64,000 bases of DNA from the IMG/VR virus record IMGVR_UViG_3300013093_000001, positions 49,906-113,905 of that record, one strand, 5' to 3'. The notes beneath the pieces were generated by a model. The model was not told the DNA's origin. It ran no database searches and worked only from the letters and a program-made list of their open reading frames with translations. Shown here in pieces: positions 24,683 through 45,923 of this stretch. How positions within the stretch are numbered: the stretch's first letter is position 1; each line of letters begins with the position of its first letter. The DNA is from a virus. A program made the translations under genes and the position numbers.

Positions 24683-24765
24683 TGCTGTTTCCTCCTCCAA
24701 CTTGGCTCGACCTCATGTCAAGCCTCGTACCCGGTACAGTTTCGAGGCTGTACCGGGCCTGTGCG

Positions 24766-24927
24766 CTACGCCAACCCGGCGCGGCGCAGTGCGTCCCGCA
24801 TCGCGGGGTTGCGGTAGTGCGTACCCCGCACCGGGGCGGGACCGCTCGCCTTCGCAGGCATGGCGGCCGGAGTGGCCTCTGCGGCCACAACCGCGACCAG
24901 CTTCCGGTTCACGTTGTATGCGTTCAC
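24766..24927 (-). CDS. small hypothetical protein
   Basis: GTG after repeat SD; NPAMRDALRRAGL. Confidence 0.6.
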   Translation of the reverse strand: MNAYNVNRKLVAVVAAEATPAAMPAKASGPAPVRGTHYRNPAMRDALRRAGLA

Positions 24928-39382: not shown

Positions 39383-39799
39383 CTACGACACCGCCTGTCG
39401 CATCAGGTCCGAGAACTCCATAAGGTGGCCGTACTTACGTTTCAGGTCACCGATTTCCCGCTGGAGCTCTTTCAACAGGATTTTCGTTAGGAACTCATCC
39501 TGTACTAGTTCCTCTGTCGGAATGTACCCAGTCCGTCTGTCGCCAGCTTCATGGAATGACTGGAAAGCCCTCACGTACCGACGCTCTCCAGACGGCGCAT
39601 CGGGTATTTGAATGCGTACAGACCTCACCAACTCAGCAGCCTGTACCTTCCGGTAAGCCTCTCCCGCAACGGTGTCGTCCCATTCAAACCGATGGTGGAG
39701 GGGCGCGTCCAACGGACGCGCCTCCTCGACAACCAGTTCTGGCGTTAACTCACCGTGGTTACGGTAAATTGCCGTCAAAACATCACGCAGGTTTGACAT
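39383..39799 (-). CDS. partner protein of RAMP-like gene
   Basis: LTPELVVEEAR..PLHHRFEWDD..YR; start overlaps RAMP stop (TGATG). Confidence 0.8.
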   Translation of the reverse strand: MSNLRDVLTAIYRNHGELTPELVVEEARPLDAPLHHRFEWDDTVAGEAYRKVQAAELVRSVRIQIPDAPSGERRYVRAFQSFHEAGDRRTGYIPTEELVQDEFLTKILLKELQREIGDLKRKYGHLMEFSDLMRQAVS

Positions 39800-40461
39800 C
39801 AGCCTTCAATGCCAATCTCAACACTGCGGTCCACCTCGTACGTCCCGTACTCACCACGCTTTTCTGGCCGCCACTCACCGACCCCAATACCCATGCCGCC
39901 AGCGTCAATGAGAGACAGCACGCTGTTGCGGTCAATGGATGACTTGACGTAGGTCACCGTCAGTACCGTCGTCCATTCGGGGAACATTGGACGGTATCGC
40001 AGGTCAGCCGACCGGGATGGACCGCCTAACCTGACCACGTCCTCACGCATCTCCGGTACACCCTTGATTTCGACCAACATTTGCGGGTCGGCCTTAGTCA
40101 AAACGCCGCGAAAAAACAGGAACTGCCGCAACGCCGTCATCGTGATGGACTTGTCGTAGAACCTGGCCGCGCTTGTCGTCGCCGCCTTAAACGCGGTGAC
40201 AGGGAAGCCGTAAGCCTCTACCGGCTGGTCCGGTGTTCCCACGTTCGGCATGTCACTACGCAGGATGCGGTAAAAAGATGCCTCATACTCTGCTTTGGGG
40301 TCGCGGATTTCCTTGACCTTTTTCTTACCTTGCTGCGCCTCCAGCATCTGCCGCTTAGACTTCTCGCTAAAGTTGTGGACAATCAGCGGAGATGTACCGA
40401 TGATCGGTACATACAGCGTTTCTACGTCAATTCTGTCTAGCTTTACGTTATCTGTCGTCAC
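39799..40461 (-). CDS. stand-alone RAMP/Cas7-like protein (Vipr-like)
   Basis: IIGTSPLIVH (beta1), GFPVTAFKAA (IPGSSLKGA-like), YRPMFPEW, C-terminal G-rich loop GIGVGEWRPEKRGEYGTYEV. Confidence 0.8.
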   Translation of the reverse strand: MTTDNVKLDRIDVETLYVPIIGTSPLIVHNFSEKSKRQMLEAQQGKKKVKEIRDPKAEYEASFYRILRSDMPNVGTPDQPVEAYGFPVTAFKAATTSAARFYDKSITMTALRQFLFFRGVLTKADPQMLVEIKGVPEMREDVVRLGGPSRSADLRYRPMFPEWTTVLTVTYVKSSIDRNSVLSLIDAGGMGIGVGEWRPEKRGEYGTYEVDRSVEIGIEG

Positions 40462-40534: not shown

Positions 40535-40621
40535 TCGCGTGCCACGACGGGGTTCCTTATGCCACGCCTGCTGACCCGCATATATATATATACGGTAAAT
40601 AAAACCGGCTTACTTCACCAG

Positions 40622-41245
40622 GCCAACTTGTCATGCCCAGCACTGCCTGCCGTGCTAAGCCCAGCCCAGCCGCACCAAACCCGACCTCGCCGTACCGTAC
40701 CTCGCCTGCCTCGCCGTGCCAGACCCGACCTCGCCATGCCAGACCTCACCGCGCCAAACCGTACCGCGCCCCGCCTGCCATGCCATGCCTTGCGATGCCA
40801 TGCCGTACCACGCCTCACCTTGCCTGCCTCGCTAGCCTCACCTTGCCTGCCTCGCCATACCATTCCTCGCCTCGCCTTGCCGCGCCTGCCTTGCCACACC
40901 CTGCCTCGACACGCCAAGCAAAGCCCAGCCTCGCCTGCCATGACTTGCCTCAACGTGACATACCCGGCCTTGACCCGCCTGCCCTGCCTTGACTTGCCTC
41001 GACTTGCCTCAACCAGCCTCGACTGCCGCGCCACACCGCGCCAGACCGCGCCATCCACACCCAGCCGCTCCGTGCCTCGACTGCGTCGCCGCGCCATGCC
41101 TGACCGGGACTGCCTCGCCATACCAGGCCGTGCCGTGCCATGCCAAACCGCGCCCTGCCCGGTCCCGCCATGCCTTGCCACGCCTTGACTGCCGTGACTT
41201 GACAAACCCCGCCGTGCCCAACCAAACCTGACCATGCCTGCCAGC
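40622..41245 (-). ncRNA. GGY-NN pentamer array (~12 units), candidate guide-RNA array
   Basis: + strand reads (RCC-NN)n; units separated by GCCTGCC/GACTGC phase breaks at 40645, 40704, 40773, 40822, 40845, 40884, 40933, 40977, 41021, 41079, 41108, 41187, 41236. Confidence 0.85.
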
Positions 41246-41275
41246 CAGCTAGGTTGCCTTGTCGAACAATGCTCT

Positions 41276-41329
41276 GTATGGCAGTCCCGGCGACGGAGGT
41301 AGACACCGGGACCGCCATACCTTATTTTA
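41276..41329 (-). promoter_or_regulatory. leader hairpin plus -10 box for the pentamer array
   Basis: ~17-bp stem 41276-41320 (G.U on minus strand); TAAAAT at 41329-41324. Confidence 0.5.
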
Positions 41330-41353: not shown

Positions 41354-42421
41354 CTACCCCAACACAGACTCCAACGCCGCCACGAACTTGCGGTCCGACT
41401 CAGCCTGCTCTCCCTTAATTGCTCGCCAGGTGTTGCGCTCGCTACGAGATCCCTGAATTTGACTCAACCAGTGGTCCCAGGTGTTGTTCGTTTGGACTGC
41501 ACCAAAGGCGGTACCTTGCCACGGTGCACATCGGTCGTCGGACGTGTATAAATCCCACCACCTGTCGCGTTTATTCAACGCCACCGTCCTAGCGCGACCC
41601 TCATCCTCTGGTATGGGGATGACAATGTCCAAAACCTTGCCGACCTGCTGCGTTGTGACCTCTCGGTCCAGCAAAGCGTGTAATTCGGACACAAACTCCT
41701 CGTTGGTGGCTTCCAAAATACCCAGCGCGTCCCGCTCGTCTTGGAAATCAGCAAAGTTGCGGGTGTGTTTGCGCCTAAACAGGACACCAGCCTTGTTGGC
41801 TTCCAGCAGGTTCCACGACAACGTGTTATCGCAGACCGTTGCGTTGATTGTCCTGCCGCTCGTTTGGGAAATCGAACCGTCCATGCTGTCAGCTTTGAGC
41901 AGGTTGGGTCGGTAATCGAAACCCGACTTAGCGTCGTGTAGCGTTTCCGGCAACGAGAACTCAACCCAGGCGCGGCCACCTTTAGCTAGCAGACCGGCAG
42001 ACGAGATGCCTAACACTGAACCCGTTAACCGCTCTGCCTGCTGGATTAGGGTTATGCCGTAGGACTGGTGGATCGCGGTCTTGAAAATCCCCAGGTCGTA
42101 GCCGGTGTCGTCCCGCAACACTCCACGACGCGCCGCCTGCGACTCAATAACCTTAACCGCGACACCCTGCGCTGTTATGAAATCAGCTTCGTCAACCTCA
42201 CACGGTTTCAGGTACGCCACCTCAAGTGACTGCGGTAGCCAGTTAAATAGTCGGCGCTGCACGTCGGCGACTGGAATAAAACCCTCGTAATGGTTACATT
42301 CCATATAGGTACCGTCTTCGTTTTTGCGGAGGTCGTCGCGGCGGTGCCACGCATTCCCCCTTTGCGCGGTCATGCCGATCAATGTGTTGACCTGCAAGTC
42401 CCGCATCGTTTCTTGCGTCAT
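41354..42421 (-). CDS. DUF932 / TIGR03299-like protein
   Basis: NAWH, SSAGLL.KGGR, SMDGS, VCDNT, KHT, GTAFGAVQ. Confidence 0.85.
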   Translation of the reverse strand: MTQETMRDLQVNTLIGMTAQRGNAWHRRDDLRKNEDGTYMECNHYEGFIPVADVQRRLFNWLPQSLEVAYLKPCEVDEADFITAQGVAVKVIESQAARRGVLRDDTGYDLGIFKTAIHQSYGITLIQQAERLTGSVLGISSAGLLAKGGRAWVEFSLPETLHDAKSGFDYRPNLLKADSMDGSISQTSGRTINATVCDNTLSWNLLEANKAGVLFRRKHTRNFADFQDERDALGILEATNEEFVSELHALLDREVTTQQVGKVLDIVIPIPEDEGRARTVALNKRDRWWDLYTSDDRCAPWQGTAFGAVQTNNTWDHWLSQIQGSRSERNTWRAIKGEQAESDRKFVAALESVLG

Positions 42422-42752: not shown

Positions 42753-42781
42753 ATAGTATGGGTTTAGCTAGTTGCTCACAA
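42753..42781 (-). promoter_or_regulatory. SigA-type promoter for DUF932/array/RAMP operon
   Basis: TTGTGA-17 bp-TACTAT. Confidence 0.5.
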
Positions 42782-43505
42782 CCTGCTGCGGTTTGATGAT
42801 GAATGGTGCACCAGACAAGCCATGACGTATCCGCGCTGGAGAGCTCGTCTTACTGAGGAAGTCGTGGACTGCGCGGCAACAGCCGTCCCAGGCCCAGTAG
42901 TCGTCAATGAGGACAACGCCGCCTGGGACAACACTATCCCAAAACGCGTCGAGGCAGATCATGGTGGAGTCGTACCAGTCTGCGTCTAGGCGCAACACCG
43001 CAATCTTTTCTGGTTTCAAACAGGTGGGCAGTGTGTCTTCAAAAAAACCGGGTGTGATGTGTACGCTTTGAGGTTGCGGCGCTCTCGACAGGGTATCAAC
43101 GAAGGTTTTTGCTGACGCGGAGCAGTTATTGCGGTAGTACGGCCCCTCAACGTCACGCTGCCATTCCAGTGCAGATTGTCCGTCAATTTCCTGTGCTGGC
43201 GGCATACCTTGGAAAGAGTCGAAGAAGAAATAGTCGCGCTTAGGACCACATACTTCAATTAGAGCCGCCGACATGCCGCCCTTCCATGTCCCGCACTCTA
43301 TGACCGCGCCGCCTTTGCCTGCCAGATGACTGGCGACGATAGCGATGTTGTCAACGAATTGCAGCAGTGGGATCATGCTGCGGTCGCGGTACTTGTTATA
43401 TAGGTGTAGGCCGCGCAACCAGGAACTACTGTAACGCATGGCTCGCTGCGCGGAAAGTTGTTCGGGACGGATTAGTCTCAAATCTAGCTTCGGCAACATG
43501 GGCAA
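42768..43505 (-). CDS. TylF/MycF-family O-methyltransferase
   Basis: IECGTWKGG, FDSFQGMP, GFFEDTLP, LRLDADWYDST, IDDY. Confidence 0.9.
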   Translation of the reverse strand: MPMLPKLDLRLIRPEQLSAQRAMRYSSSWLRGLHLYNKYRDRSMIPLLQFVDNIAIVASHLAGKGGAVIECGTWKGGMSAALIEVCGPKRDYFFFDSFQGMPPAQEIDGQSALEWQRDVEGPYYRNNCSASAKTFVDTLSRAPQPQSVHITPGFFEDTLPTCLKPEKIAVLRLDADWYDSTMICLDAFWDSVVPGGVVLIDDYWAWDGCCRAVHDFLSKTSSPARIRHGLSGAPFIIKPQQVVSN

Positions 43506-44064: not shown

Positions 44065-44307
44065 GTGTTGTTCAAACTGATACCAGTCGGTGTTGTGAAC
44101 GCTTTGGAGAATTTCGTCAACAGTGTCATAACGGTAATTGTTGACTCTGTTGAGGACCGGATGCGGATGGTGATGCTGGAGTTCACCGTCGATGACCCTA
44201 ATGCTGGTGGACCCGTTATATGTAGTAAATGCGCCACTAATACCGAGTCGGGTATATGCCCTGACTGTCAGCCTATGGCGCACTCTCGACTCCCTAACCA
44301 GGCATGA
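44065..44307 (+). CDS. hypothetical Zn-finger protein
   Basis: AGGAGG SD; CSKC..CPDC. Confidence 0.6.
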   Translation: MLFKLIPVGVVNALENFVNSVITVIVDSVEDRMRMVMLEFTVDDPNAGGPVICSKCATNTESGICPDCQPMAHSRLPNQA

Positions 44308-45923
44308 CTGCCGCGTTTGTTGACGAGGTCATCCCCGCGCAGGGGAGTACCACGCCACGCATTTACACCAAGCCCCTGGATGTCAACTGCACTGGTCAGG
44401 TTGATGACGAGGAGTGCATTTGCGGGTGTGGACTCAACCCTGACACGTCGTGGGGTTTCGACTGCATCGACTTCCTCCTCAATGTGTGTCATTGGCAGCT
44501 TATGCCCTGGCAGGAGTGGTTGTATGTGCACGCTTTGGAGAAGCAGACAGACGGTACGGGTTTCCGCTTCCAAATCCTTGTCATCCTGGTGGCGCGTCAG
44601 AATGGTAAGTCGCGGTGGCTTAAGGGGCTGGGTTTGTGGCGGCTTTTCCTGTCCCGCTACGGGCGGGTTGACGCTCATTGTCCTGGCGCTCGACTCGCTG
44701 TCATCGCTGCTCAGAACCTTGACTATGCGGAGAATATGCTCAAGGAGGTTGTTGACGAAATCCGTGACAACCCGCTGCTGTGCCGTGAGCTGATTAACCA
44801 CCGGGTCACCAATGGTAAACACAGGGCTATCCTCACTAACCGCCGTTACTGGCGTGCCGCCACCGCGTCCCGTAAAGGCGCTCGTTCGTTGTCGGTAGAC
44901 ATAGCCATGTTGGATGAGTTGCGTGAGCATACGACGTGGGATGCGTGGAATGCTATTGTCCCGACGACGACGGTACGCCGATACAGCCAGGTGGTGTGTA
45001 CCAGCAACGCGGGAGACAGCCGCAGTGAGGTGTTGAGAGCGGCCAGGGATGGCGCTATGCGCCGCGTGTTGACGGGCGAAACGGAGAACACCAGGATCGG
45101 GTTGTTTGAGTGGAGTGTTCCTATGGAGGAAGACCCTAAAGACCCGGCGTTTTGGCACATGGCTAACCCGTCTATGGGTTTACTGAATGATTTTTCGCTG
45201 GATGATTTGCGTGGCTATTTGGAGGCAATGGAGTATAGGAACTTGGCTGGCTTTCAAACTGAACACCTGTGTCAGTGGGTTGACTCCCTGCAACCTGGCA
45301 TTTTGCCAGCTGAGCATTGGGCTGAAACTATTGACCCCACCAGTCGCAGAGATGAGTCGGCACCTGTTTTCGCGGCATTGGACGTTAACTATGATAGGAC
45401 GAGAAGCTATGTCTGCATCGCAGGCCGTCGCGCTGACGGTAACTTGCACATTGAAATTGCCGTCGCTGCCAGCGGAACTGACTGGGTTGTTGAGTACCTT
45501 GCGGAACGAAAGAAAAAGTTCAAAGCCGTCGCTGTCCAAAAGACCGGAGCGCCGGTCAGCGGTATGATTGACGACATTAAACGCGCTGGTGTCAAGGTTG
45601 TTGAGTGGGGTCCGAGCAACGAAATTGCTGGGGCCTGCGCCATGCTGTATGACCAGATCACTGAACACCGGATTTTCCACCGGCCAGCCGGAGCCCTGGA
45701 CCGAGCAGCTGCTAGCGGCGTGGCGAGGAATGTCAGTGAGGGTTGGGTGTTTGACCGCCGTAACTCCCCCGTCGACGTGTCGCCTTTAATTGCGTGCGCC
45801 GCTGCGGCATGGTTGGAGCATAAAAGGCCGGGAACGCCTACAGTTCATGAGTGGCCTGATGAAGATGTCATTAGGCAGTGGGAAGAAGAAGGCCGAGGCA
45901 TGGAGGCGCAATGGAAAACGTGA
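44304..45923 (+). CDS. terL: terminase large subunit
   Basis: LMPWQ, VARQNGKS (Walker A), MLDELRE (Walker B), SNAG, ANPSMG. Confidence 0.95.
   Translation: MTAAFVDEVIPAQGSTTPRIYTKPLDVNCTGQVDDEECICGCGLNPDTSWGFDCIDFLLNVCHWQLMPWQEWLYVHALEKQTDGTGFRFQILVILVARQNGKSRWLKGLGLWRLFLSRYGRVDAHCPGARLAVIAAQNLDYAENMLKEVVDEIRDNPLLCRELINHRVTNGKHRAILTNRRYWRAATASRKGARSLSVDIAMLDELREHTTWDAWNAIVPTTTVRRYSQVVCTSNAGDSRSEVLRAARDGAMRRVLTGETENTRIGLFEWSVPMEEDPKDPAFWHMANPSMGLLNDFSLDDLRGYLEAMEYRNLAGFQTEHLCQWVDSLQPGILPAEHWAETIDPTSRRDESAPVFAALDVNYDRTRSYVCIAGRRADGNLHIEIAVAASGTDWVVEYLAERKKKFKAVAVQKTGAPVSGMIDDIKRAGVKVVEWGPSNEIAGACAMLYDQITEHRIFHRPAGALDRAAASGVARNVSEGWVFDRRNSPVDVSPLIACAAAAWLEHKRPGTPTVHEWPDEDVIRQWEEEGRGMEAQWKT

What the first reader, a model, noticed from the sequence alone, without database searches (positions are those of the whole stretch)
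40645..41242. The pentamer array is punctuated into ~12 guide-sized units with a readable dinucleotide code
Seen: 4-nt phase breaks (minus strand GGC-A-GGC or GGC-A-GUC) recur at spacings 59, 69, 49, 23, 39, 49, 44, 44, 58, 29, 79, 49, nearly all 5n+4. The NN strings differ per unit; 40711-40772 reads TC GT AG CG TC AT AG TC GC AA GT GC CC on the + strand. Slippage microsatellites would homogenise NN, which is not seen. Inference: the breaks are processing or boundary signals and the NN strings carry target information.
Basis: partly seen in the sequence, partly recalled or inferred. Interest (0 to 1): 0.88.

Follow-up and report, generated by a model that had tools for sequence, protein, structure and literature searches.

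The report
Phage VIPR guide-RNA array (staggered)

Summary
On the minus strand, 40648-41238 is 121 head-to-tail units: 107 GGY-NN pentamers and 14 four-base units, almost all GGCA followed by G. The 5-nt periodicity occurs nowhere else in the 113.9-kb phage genome.

The gene just downstream (39799-40461, minus) is a Vipr protein. Its family profile hits PDB 36pp 'SUSP1 Vipr' at E 3.5e-6, its predicted fold is Cas7/RAMP, and the published GGY-contact residues are kept. A conserved 138-aa accessory gene (vap) follows it.

The same three parts lie together in the IMG/VR relatives and in Gordonia phages Pipp and Ecliptus and Mycobacterium phage Saal. The punctuation GGCAG|G[GT]C is conserved across these arrays.

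This matches the 'staggered vrRNA arrays' with 1-nt overlaps of bioRxiv 10.64898/2026.04.26.720920, where NN dinucleotides pair with DNA while skipping every third base.

- No natural target was found; the seeds were few and had to match exactly.
- No RNA data exist for this DNA.
- A ~98% identical phage from 2020 lake samples carries a rearranged array, with junctions mostly at unit boundaries.

This scan has already noted VIPR-type loci in at least 261 other genomes. Verdict: new member of a known kind, modest interest.

The parts
40648..41242 (-). Staggered vrRNA array: leader GGCA (41242-41239), then 14 guide units made of 107 GGY-NN pentamers and 14 four-base GGCA-type delimiters
   Evidence: Same-type arrays lie beside vipr homologues in the relatives.
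41190..41238 (-). Guide 0: 9 pentamers + GGCA. NN = AT CA TT TG AC GG TT AA AC (AG)
41111..41189 (-). Guide 1: 15 pentamers + GGCA. NN = AA GT AA AT GG CG AG GC TT AT AC AC CT AT GA (AG). Read as codon positions 1-2 it gives [KN]V[KN][IM]GR[RS]A[FL][IM]TTL[IM][DE]
41024..41110 (-). Guides 2, 3 and 4: three short units of 5 pentamers + one tetramer each (41082-41110, 41053-41081, 41024-41052). The delimiters ending guides 2 and 3 are non-canonical (CGCA, GGAT).
40848..41023 (-). Guides 5-8 (40980-41023, 40936-40979, 40887-40935, 40848-40886). This block is retained in the 2020 variant phage.
40825..40847 (-). Mini-units 9 and 10, created by a 23-nt direct duplication (TRF 40812-40855, 100% match). 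One 2020 contig lacks the 23 nt.
40648..40824 (-). Guides 11, 12 and 13 (40776-40824, 40707-40775, 40648-40706). Guide 12 decodes to GAT[FL]A[DE]L[IM][DE]RLT[DE]. The 2020 variant lacks 40627-40846.
40601..40647 (-). Degenerate last units, then a terminator-like hairpin with a T-run (40621-40605) that closes the array
39799..40461 (-). vipr gene: 220-aa Cas7-like RAMP, G-loop GIGVGEWRP
   Evidence: PDB 36pp_D SUSP1 Vipr, E 3e-4 for the single sequence, 3.5e-6 for the profile; AF2 pLDDT 78.5; Foldseek top hits Csm3/Cas7, probability 1.0; R157, E196, W197, R198 invariant
39383..39799 (-). vap (vipr-accessory) gene: 138 aa, start overlaps the vipr stop. N-terminal ~100 residues look winged-helix-like, followed by a long C-terminal helix.
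   Evidence: found beside vipr in 12 of 12 loci with enough sequence

Best explanation
The tract is the vrRNA array of a VIPR (Viral Interference Programmable Repeat) system carried by a 114-kb uncultured lake-water actinophage.

Proposed mechanism:
1. The array is transcribed on the minus strand, the same strand as the vipr-vap operon just downstream.
2. Vipr protomers bind one per pentamer. They bury each GGY and expose the two variable bases.
3. The exposed NN dinucleotides pair with a DNA target in which every third base is skipped (NNxNNx...). The bound filament then represses that locus, most likely in a rival phage, prophage or satellite.
4. The array is 'staggered'. It has no 3' handle. 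Instead, successive guides are delimited by GGCAG|G, where one G is shared, so the register slips by one base and a 4-nt unit appears.

What is shown here: the anatomy, the protein family and fold, conserved GGY-contact residues, the conserved vap partner, the conserved punctuation, guide lengths of 9-11 repeats in the family, absence of self-targets, and rearrangement of the array between near-identical phages.

What is taken from the published SUSP1 work, not shown here: transcription, processing at the breaks, the 1-nt skip rule for this clade, and silencing.

My own inference: the register slip itself ends one Vipr filament and starts the next, and exposed RNA is then trimmed by host nucleases.
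For: Array: real and unique in the genome.

Vipr protein:
- The neighbouring 220-aa protein hits PDB 36pp_D 'SUSP1 Vipr protein' at E 3e-4. A 23-sequence family profile hits it at E 3.5e-6.
- In that alignment R157, E196, W197 and R198 match SUSP1 R138, D177, W178 and R179. Paper .720927 names these as the contacts to G1, G2 and Y3. All four are invariant in the family alignment.
- The AF2 model (pLDDT 78.5) gives 87 Foldseek PDB hits at E<=1e-3. The top hits are all Cas7-type RAMPs: Csm3, type VII Cas7 and Cas7-11, probability 1.0, TM ~0.5.

Comparative evidence:
- GGY-NN arrays, G-rich on the vipr sense strand, lie next to vipr homologues in 9 of 10 IMG/VR loci and in Gordonia phages Pipp and Ecliptus and Mycobacterium phage Saal.
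- The 138-aa gene accompanies vipr in 12 of 12 loci.
- Over 14 arrays, the four-base units read GGCAGGC 65 times, GGCAGTC 13 times and GGCAGGT 5 times, out of about 105.
- Guide lengths peak at 9-11 repeats, inside the published 9-16 range.

Other support:
- No self-target exists in the phage's own genome under any skip rule, as the paper also reports for its systems.
- Contigs from two 2020 lake-water runs share the flanks at ~98% identity. They skip 40627-40846 and 41048-41303 and carry other guide sequence, with junctions at 40847, 41024, 41028 and 41047, all on unit boundaries.
Against: - No natural target was found. Seven IMG/VR scans, two metagenome scans and one genome-collection scan used 9- or 10-dinucleotide exact seeds from guides 0, 1, 7, 12 and 13. 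They gave 0-9 hits each, and extension into the rest of the guide was at chance.
- A scan of 78 guides from 14 arrays against 486 kb of related phage genomes showed no excess for the 1-nt skip over 0, 2 or 3 nt or over shuffled guides.
- Five of the 14 units are shorter than any published vrRNA (6, 6, 6, 3 and 2 repeats) and may be dead.
- In this phage the array lies upstream of vipr, after an unrelated DUF932 gene. No convincing promoter was found on the minus strand.
- The paper did not confirm staggered arrays by RNA sequencing.
- The sequence match to SUSP1 Vipr covers only the C-terminal ~55 residues.
Confidence: 0.9

Rival explanations
1. The tract is a protein-coding gene: the 206-aa Arg/Gly/Trp-rich ORF 40615-41235 (minus) that spans the array exactly. 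Gordonia phage Pipp annotates its own array this way, as gene 43.
For: One minus-strand frame is open across the whole array. Pipp gene 43 is annotated over the homologous tract.
Against: - All six frames carry long ORFs here because the composition holds few stop codons.
- In relatives L009, L004 and L010b every sense frame is broken inside the array.
- The conserved unit is 5 nt with 4-nt slips, which scrambles any reading frame.
- The ORF has no Pfam or PHROG match.
Confidence: 0.02
2. The tract is a slippage-prone microsatellite or a DNA structural element, such as a two-tetrad G-quadruplex/i-motif run or an origin or iteron region. It would carry no information in NN.
For: GG recurs every 5 nt on one strand, GC skew reaches -0.42, and GC rises to 0.68 locally. 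Array length varies between strains.
Against: - NN entropy is 3.47 of 4 bits.
- The delimiter GGCAG|G is conserved across 14 arrays.
- The array is linked to a RAMP gene and its partner on the same strand in every array-bearing locus examined.
- One guide family is conserved dinucleotide-for-dinucleotide in six diverged phages.
Confidence: 0.03
3. It is a genuine VIPR array, but the guides are aimed at host genes such as defence or DNA-modification genes, or they work as decoys that redirect a rival phage's Vipr. The target would then not be rival mobile elements.
For: Paper 10.64898/2026.10.15.759431 shows decoy and orphan vrRNAs. The only IMG/VR seed hit for guide 1 fell in a DNA methyltransferase motif (25 of 32 positions). 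Earlier notes of this scan propose such targets on other DNA.
Against: The methyltransferase hit is in a 35%-GC phage, and its extension (7 of 14) is near chance. No host genome is known for this phage. One such claim from this scan partly fell on later checking.
Confidence: 0.2

Closest known systems
VIPR systems with staggered vrRNA arrays (bioRxiv 10.64898/2026.04.26.720920, fig. S18 legend)
   Same: A lone small Cas7-like Vipr gene plus a vap gene. A tail-less run of GGY-NN pentamers in which neighbouring guides overlap by one base. Phage-borne. No CRISPR repeats and no cas1.
   Different: Which of the paper's seven types this clade belongs to could not be checked, because its tables and figures are not held. 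Here the array lies upstream of vipr, whereas most relatives have it after vap. It is long (14 units, ~600 nt) and contains five sub-length units. The delimiter consensus GGCAG|G[GT]C and its conservation in actinophages were worked out here; I could not read them in the paper text.
Type II VIPR of Escherichia phage SUSP1 (PDB 36pp; bioRxiv 10.64898/2026.04.26.720927)
   Same: The protein family and the G-loop and thumb residues that hold GGY. Guides of 9-16 GGY-NN repeats. A small accessory gene predicted to bind DNA.
   Different: SUSP1 vrRNAs are separate ~100-nt transcripts, each capped by a conserved 3' tail with a pseudoknot. No such tail separates the guides here. Sequence similarity is detectable only over the C-terminal ~55 residues.
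Class 1 CRISPR-Cas backbones (Cas7/Csm3 on crRNA)
   Same: RAMP fold. One protomer per fixed number of guide nucleotides. A thumb that flips bases periodically.
   Different: The period is 5 nt with three bases sequestered, against 6 nt with one flipped. The guide is non-contiguous. There is no repeat-spacer array, no Cas6 or Cas5 and no adaptation genes in the neighbourhood examined.
TRAP (trp RNA-binding attenuation protein) binding sites
   Same: Triplets repeated about every 5 nt on an RNA, each read by one subunit of an oligomer.
   Different: TRAP reads 11 (G/U)AG triplets for attenuation, and its spacers carry no information (from my own knowledge, not tested here). The protein here is a RAMP, not a TRAP fold.

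Membership tests
VIPR system | Small stand-alone Vipr protein with RAMP fold (RRM core, G-loop, thumb) | tested here: met
   220 aa. Family profile hits PDB 36pp_D SUSP1 Vipr at E 3.5e-6. The AF2 model hits Csm3, Cas7 and Cas7-11 with probability 1.0 and TM ~0.5. No Pfam family.
VIPR system | Residues that hold GGY (SUSP1 R138 in the thumb; D177, W178, R179 in the G-loop) | tested here: met
   R157, E196 (Asp to Glu), W197 and R198 align to them and are invariant in 23 family members. H17 and K33 lie outside the aligned region and could not be placed.
VIPR system | vrRNA region of tandem GGY/NN pentamers with conserved GGY and hypervariable NN, 9-16 repeats per guide | tested here: met
   GGY in 98 of 121 units; NN entropy 3.47 of 4 bits. 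Nine of 14 units have 8-16 repeats. The family mode is 9-11.
VIPR system | Array adjacent to vipr on the same strand, across relatives | tested here: met
   Every array-bearing locus is G-rich on the vipr sense strand: 9 of 10 IMG/VR loci plus Pipp, Ecliptus and Saal.
VIPR system | vipr-accessory (vap) gene | tested here: met
   138-aa gene beside vipr in 12 of 12 loci. The winged-helix-like fold rests on Z 5-6.4 only, which is inconclusive for function.
VIPR system | Staggered architecture: neighbouring vrRNAs overlap by 1 nt | tested here: met
   12 of 15 four-base units in the window read GGCA+G. About 85 of ~105 across 14 arrays read GGCAG[GT][CT]. Definition taken from the fig. S18 legend.
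VIPR system | Array is transcribed, processed into guides and bound by Vipr | not testable with these tools
   No run on record as RNA holds this DNA. All holders are lake-water metagenome contigs.
VIPR system | Guides match natural DNA targets under the 1-nt skip rule better than under other rules or shuffles | tested here: inconclusive
   Exact-seed scans for five guides gave only chance-level hits. Scanning 78 guides against 486 kb showed no signal under any rule. The searches could not tolerate mismatches in the large collections.
VIPR system | No self-targeting of the carrier genome | tested here: met
   Best matches in the own genome equal the shuffled-guide null for skips 0-3.
Type II VIPR (SUSP1-like) | Each vrRNA ends in a conserved 3' tail with a pseudoknot | tested here: not met
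   Guides abut one another with only a 4-nt unit between them. No Rfam match.
CRISPR-Cas | Repeat-spacer array of ~60-79 nt period, with cas1/cas2 or other cas genes | tested here: not met
   TRF finds only 5-nt-based periods. The neighbouring genes are DUF932, DUF7694 and a TylF-like methyltransferase. PADLOC gives no hit.

The most novel reading that the evidence does not exclude
In tail-less staggered arrays the one-base register slip (GGCAG|G) may be the only thing that defines a guide. It would stop one Vipr filament and seed the next, so guide ends would be set by a protein ruler and not by a handle or a dedicated nuclease. The same junction may act as the recombination point at which whole guides are swapped, duplicated or lost between co-circulating phages. 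That would give a route to guide turnover without Cas1. The rearranged array in the 2020 variant, with junctions on unit boundaries, and the 23-nt duplication that begins and ends at junctions are compatible with this but do not show it.
Probability: 0.3. Interest if true: 0.6.

Novelty: new member of a known kind. Interest (0 to 1): 0.3.

Why it matters
The class was published in 2026, so this locus does not open a new field. It does add four points.

1. The staggered, tail-less array architecture was not among the architectures the paper confirmed by small-RNA sequencing. It turns out to be widespread in actinophages, with a sharply conserved delimiter.
2. The same system sits in cultured, genetically tractable phages (Mycobacterium phage Saal and its relatives, Gordonia phages Pipp and Ecliptus). 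There the array is either unannotated or annotated as a protein gene. Small-RNA sequencing and knock-outs could test processing and targets directly in those phages.
3. Two near-identical lake phages sampled two years apart carry different guide sets. That bears on the open question of how VIPR guides are renewed.
4. Genome annotators should stop calling ORFs across such tracts.

Tried and rejected
Readings considered and rejected:
- Protein-coding reading: rejected because relatives have stops in all frames.
- Known RNA family: Rfam gives no match on either strand at E<=1.
- DUF932 gene 41354-42421 as part of the system: not conserved next to vipr in any relative.
- Second array elsewhere in the genome: the only other lag-5 blip (window 24696-24875) is ordinary coding sequence with hairpins.

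Target hunt:
- No self-targets in the own genome.
- No signal in relatives' loci and whole records under any skip rule.
- IMG/VR seeds for guides 1, 12, 13, 0 and 7, and second seeds for guides 1 and 12, gave 1-6 hits each, with extension at chance. Several hits lie in 35-39% GC phages.
- Two metagenome seeds for guides 1 and 13 gave 0 hits.
- The genome-collection seed for guide 12 gave 9 in-frame hits to a common 'AT[FL]A[DE]LI[DE]RL' helix in unrelated proteins of unrelated bacteria.
- tblastn of a decoded guide-1 peptide gave no match.

Composition test: fitting NN to codon positions 1-2 beat positions 2-3 and 3-1 only slightly (-2.80 against -2.84 and -3.10 per NN) and was worse than a uniform model (-2.77). 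Per-guide strand asymmetry exceeded all 500 permutations, but that test is confounded by differences between arrays. I draw no conclusion from it.

Tools and data that gave nothing:
- No RNA holder listed for this DNA.
- A Foldseek search of the vap model gave nothing at E<=1e-3.

Full report
**Observation**

The window is the right-hand 64 kb of a 113,905-bp IMG/VR virus record with direct terminal repeats. Runs from lake-water metagenomes hold it.

Between 40648 and 41242 the sequence has a strong 5-nt periodicity. Lag-5 identity is 0.55, against less than 0.38 in every other 200-nt window of the genome. Read on the minus strand, the tract is 121 head-to-tail units:
- 107 pentamers of the form GGY-NN
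- 14 four-base units inside the tract, plus a leader GGCA at 41242-41239

The first three bases are GGY in 98 of 121 units. The two variable bases use 14 of the 16 dinucleotides, with entropy 3.47 of 4 bits.

The '5n+4' regularity follows from the construction and adds nothing. The quoted NN string is correct.

**What it is**

Both flanking genes are on the minus strand.

*The upstream gene* (41354-42421) is a DUF932 protein. It is not found next to the system in any relative.

*The downstream gene* (39799-40461, 220 aa) has no Pfam family. Three lines of evidence place it in the Vipr family:
- It hits PDB entry 36pp, 'SUSP1 Vipr protein', at E 3e-4. A profile of 23 family members hits it at E 3.5e-6.
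- The aligned stretch holds the G-loop GVGEWRP and the thumb arginine. R157, E196, W197 and R198 correspond to SUSP1 R138, D177, W178 and R179, the residues the cryo-EM preprint names as holding G1, G2 and Y3 of each repeat. All four are invariant in the family.
- An AlphaFold model (pLDDT 78.5) finds Cas7-type RAMPs as its best PDB matches: Csm3, type VII Cas7 and Cas7-11, probability 1.0.

*The next gene* (39383-39799, 138 aa) starts on the vipr stop codon and accompanies vipr in 12 of 12 loci. Its model (pLDDT 87) has an N-terminal domain that resembles winged-helix DNA binders at Z 5-6.4, which is suggestive only. It fits the published 'vap' accessory gene.

**Published framework**

Three 2026 preprints describe VIPR systems.
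- 10.64898/2026.04.26.720920 (discovery): Vipr proteins bind vrRNAs made of 9-16 GGY/NN repeats. The NN dinucleotides pair with double-stranded DNA while one target base per unit is skipped. The complex silences genes of rival phages, prophages and satellites.
- 10.64898/2026.04.26.720927 (structures).
- 10.64898/2026.10.15.759431 (phage-satellite competition).

The first paper lists seven types and several array architectures. [quoted passage not shown] S18 legend). That is exactly a 4-nt unit in a 5-nt register. In GGCAG|GC the G is both the last base of one guide's final GGC-AG unit and the first base of the next GGC. The paper states that the ribozyme-separated and single-guide architectures were confirmed by small-RNA sequencing. 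It does not say so for staggered arrays.

**Comparative evidence**

The Vipr family has more than 3,700 members in the protein collection. The nearest named ones come from Microbacterium genomes.

Arrays of the same kind, always G-rich on the vipr sense strand, lie next to vipr in:
- 9 of 10 IMG/VR loci
- Gordonia phage Pipp, where the array is annotated as gene 43
- Gordonia phage Ecliptus, in an unannotated gap
- Mycobacterium phage Saal, genus Cheoctovirus

The order of the parts varies:
- array-vipr-vap: this window, L005 and Saal
- vipr-vap-array: most IMG/VR loci, with the array starting on the vap stop codon as TAGGCAGGC
- vipr-array-vap: the Gordonia phages

Over 14 arrays the four-base units read GGCAGGC 65 times, GGCAGTC 13 times and GGCAGGT 5 times, out of about 105. 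The punctuation is therefore a conserved signal and not noise. Guide lengths peak at 9-11 pentamers.

The ORF that spans the array in this window (206 aa) is not conserved. In L009, L004 and L010b every sense frame is interrupted.

**Array dynamics**

Contigs of two 2020 lake-water runs from one study carry the flanking genes at about 98% identity, but a different array:
- They skip 40627-40846 (guides 9-13) and 41048-41303 (guides 0-3).
- They keep guides 5-8.
- They place a guide-0-like segment after guide 4 and contain guide sequence absent here.
- The mapped junctions (40847, 41024, 41028, 41047) all fall on unit boundaries.
- One contig also lacks the 23-nt duplication that creates mini-units 9 and 10.

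These are short assembled contigs across a repeat, from one study. I treat this as an indication of cassette-like turnover, not as proof.

**Targets**

I could not name a target.
- The phage's own genome holds no match above the shuffled-guide null under any skip rule. The paper reports the same for its systems.
- Exact 9- or 10-dinucleotide seeds with a 1-nt skip from guides 0, 1, 7, 12 and 13 were scanned against IMG/VR (7 scans), JGI metagenomes (2) and GTDB genomes (1). Hits were few, the rest of the guide matched at chance, and several hits lie in low-GC phages unrelated to this one.
- Guide 12 decodes, as codon positions 1-2, to GAT[FL]A[DE]L[IM][DE]RLT[DE]. Its seeds hit in-frame 'AELIERL'-type helices in many unrelated proteins. 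This shows the string is protein-like, but it does not identify a gene.
- Guide 1 decodes to [KN]V[KN][IM]GR[RS]A[FL][IM]TTL[IM][DE]. My only database hit lay in a methyltransferase motif, at 25 of 32 positions. Neither reading is established.
- Seventy-eight guides from 14 arrays were scanned against 486 kb of related phage records. The 1-nt skip showed no advantage.

These searches were underpowered because the large collections accept only exact patterns. The result is therefore inconclusive, not negative.

**Mechanism and confidence**

I put about 0.9 on the statement that this is a VIPR locus with a staggered vrRNA array.

For this locus the following are inherited from the SUSP1 experiments, not shown: transcription of the minus strand, one Vipr protomer per pentamer, NN pairing with a 1-nt skip, and transcriptional silencing of a rival element.

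Two points are my own inference. First, the register slip itself may delimit filaments and hence guides. Second, the five short units may be non-functional remnants.

A terminator-like hairpin with a T-run (40621-40605, minus) closes the array before the vipr upstream region. No convincing minus-strand promoter was found upstream of the array.

**Novelty and score**

This scan has already recorded VIPR-type loci in at least 261 other genomes.

What this locus adds:
- the delimiter consensus and its conservation in actinophages
- the presence of the system in cultured mycobacteriophages and Gordonia phages, where it is mis-annotated or unannotated
- a hint of guide turnover between near-identical phages

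I class it as a new member of a known kind, interest 0.3.

Noticed in passing
L012:4611-4880 (Gordonia phage Pipp MN234179, gene 43); L013:4612-4874 (Gordonia phage Ecliptus OP820472); L014:3583-3840 (Mycobacterium phage Saal NC_023580): Cultured actinophages carry the same staggered GGY-NN arrays next to vipr and vap homologues. In Pipp the array is annotated as a hypothetical protein. In Ecliptus it is an unannotated gap. In Saal the annotated start of gene 51 (the vipr homologue) reaches back to the array edge, about 56 codons before homology begins.
   Followed up: partly
L002:5011-5321, L003:2331-2631, L005:821-1021, L006:5031-5651, L007:5051-5771, L010:796-1421: One guide is shared by six diverged relatives (NN consensus TG AT AY AG TG CC AG TC TG GC; 80-95% pairwise identity in most pairs, against 0.71-0.81 as the best pair in 19 of 20 shuffles, with one shuffle at 0.88). 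It is absent from the window, apart from a possible remnant GGCAG TGCTG GGCAT at 40633-40647. A conserved guide implies a conserved target.
   Followed up: partly
window 40812-40855: A perfect 23-nt direct duplication spans two delimiters and creates two mini-units (3 and 2 repeats). One 2020 lake-water contig lacks it. It looks like a recent slip or recombination at the GGCAGGC junctions.
   Followed up: partly
window 40580-40595: A (TA)7 tract lies between the array terminator and the vipr upstream region. One 2020 variant contig has 6 nt fewer here. It could be a promoter or spacer element of variable length.
   Followed up: no
window 40776-40814: Summed contig depth jumps from ~10 to 400-600 in three lake-water runs, because many short contigs at under 95% identity pile up here. 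They are probably GCCAT-type pentamer tracts of other VIPR arrays in the same communities.
   Followed up: no
window 41283-41318: An 11-bp GC-rich inverted repeat (GGCAGTCCCGG ... CCGGGACCGCC) lies between the DUF932 stop codon and the array start. The 2020 variant replaces the sequence just downstream of it. It may terminate the DUF932 gene or belong to the array leader.
   Followed up: no
window 42768-43505: A TylF-like (macrocin O-methyltransferase family) gene in a phage genome (Pfam PF05711, E 4.7e-30). Its function here is unknown.
   Followed up: no
window 44304-45923: The large terminase is closest (54-57% identity) to Mycobacterium phages Nadezda, Typha and Bipper and to M. abscessus prophages. 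Yet the phage has 55.7% GC, is 114 kb long and comes from lake water, so it is an actinophage lineage without a cultured close relative.
   Followed up: partly
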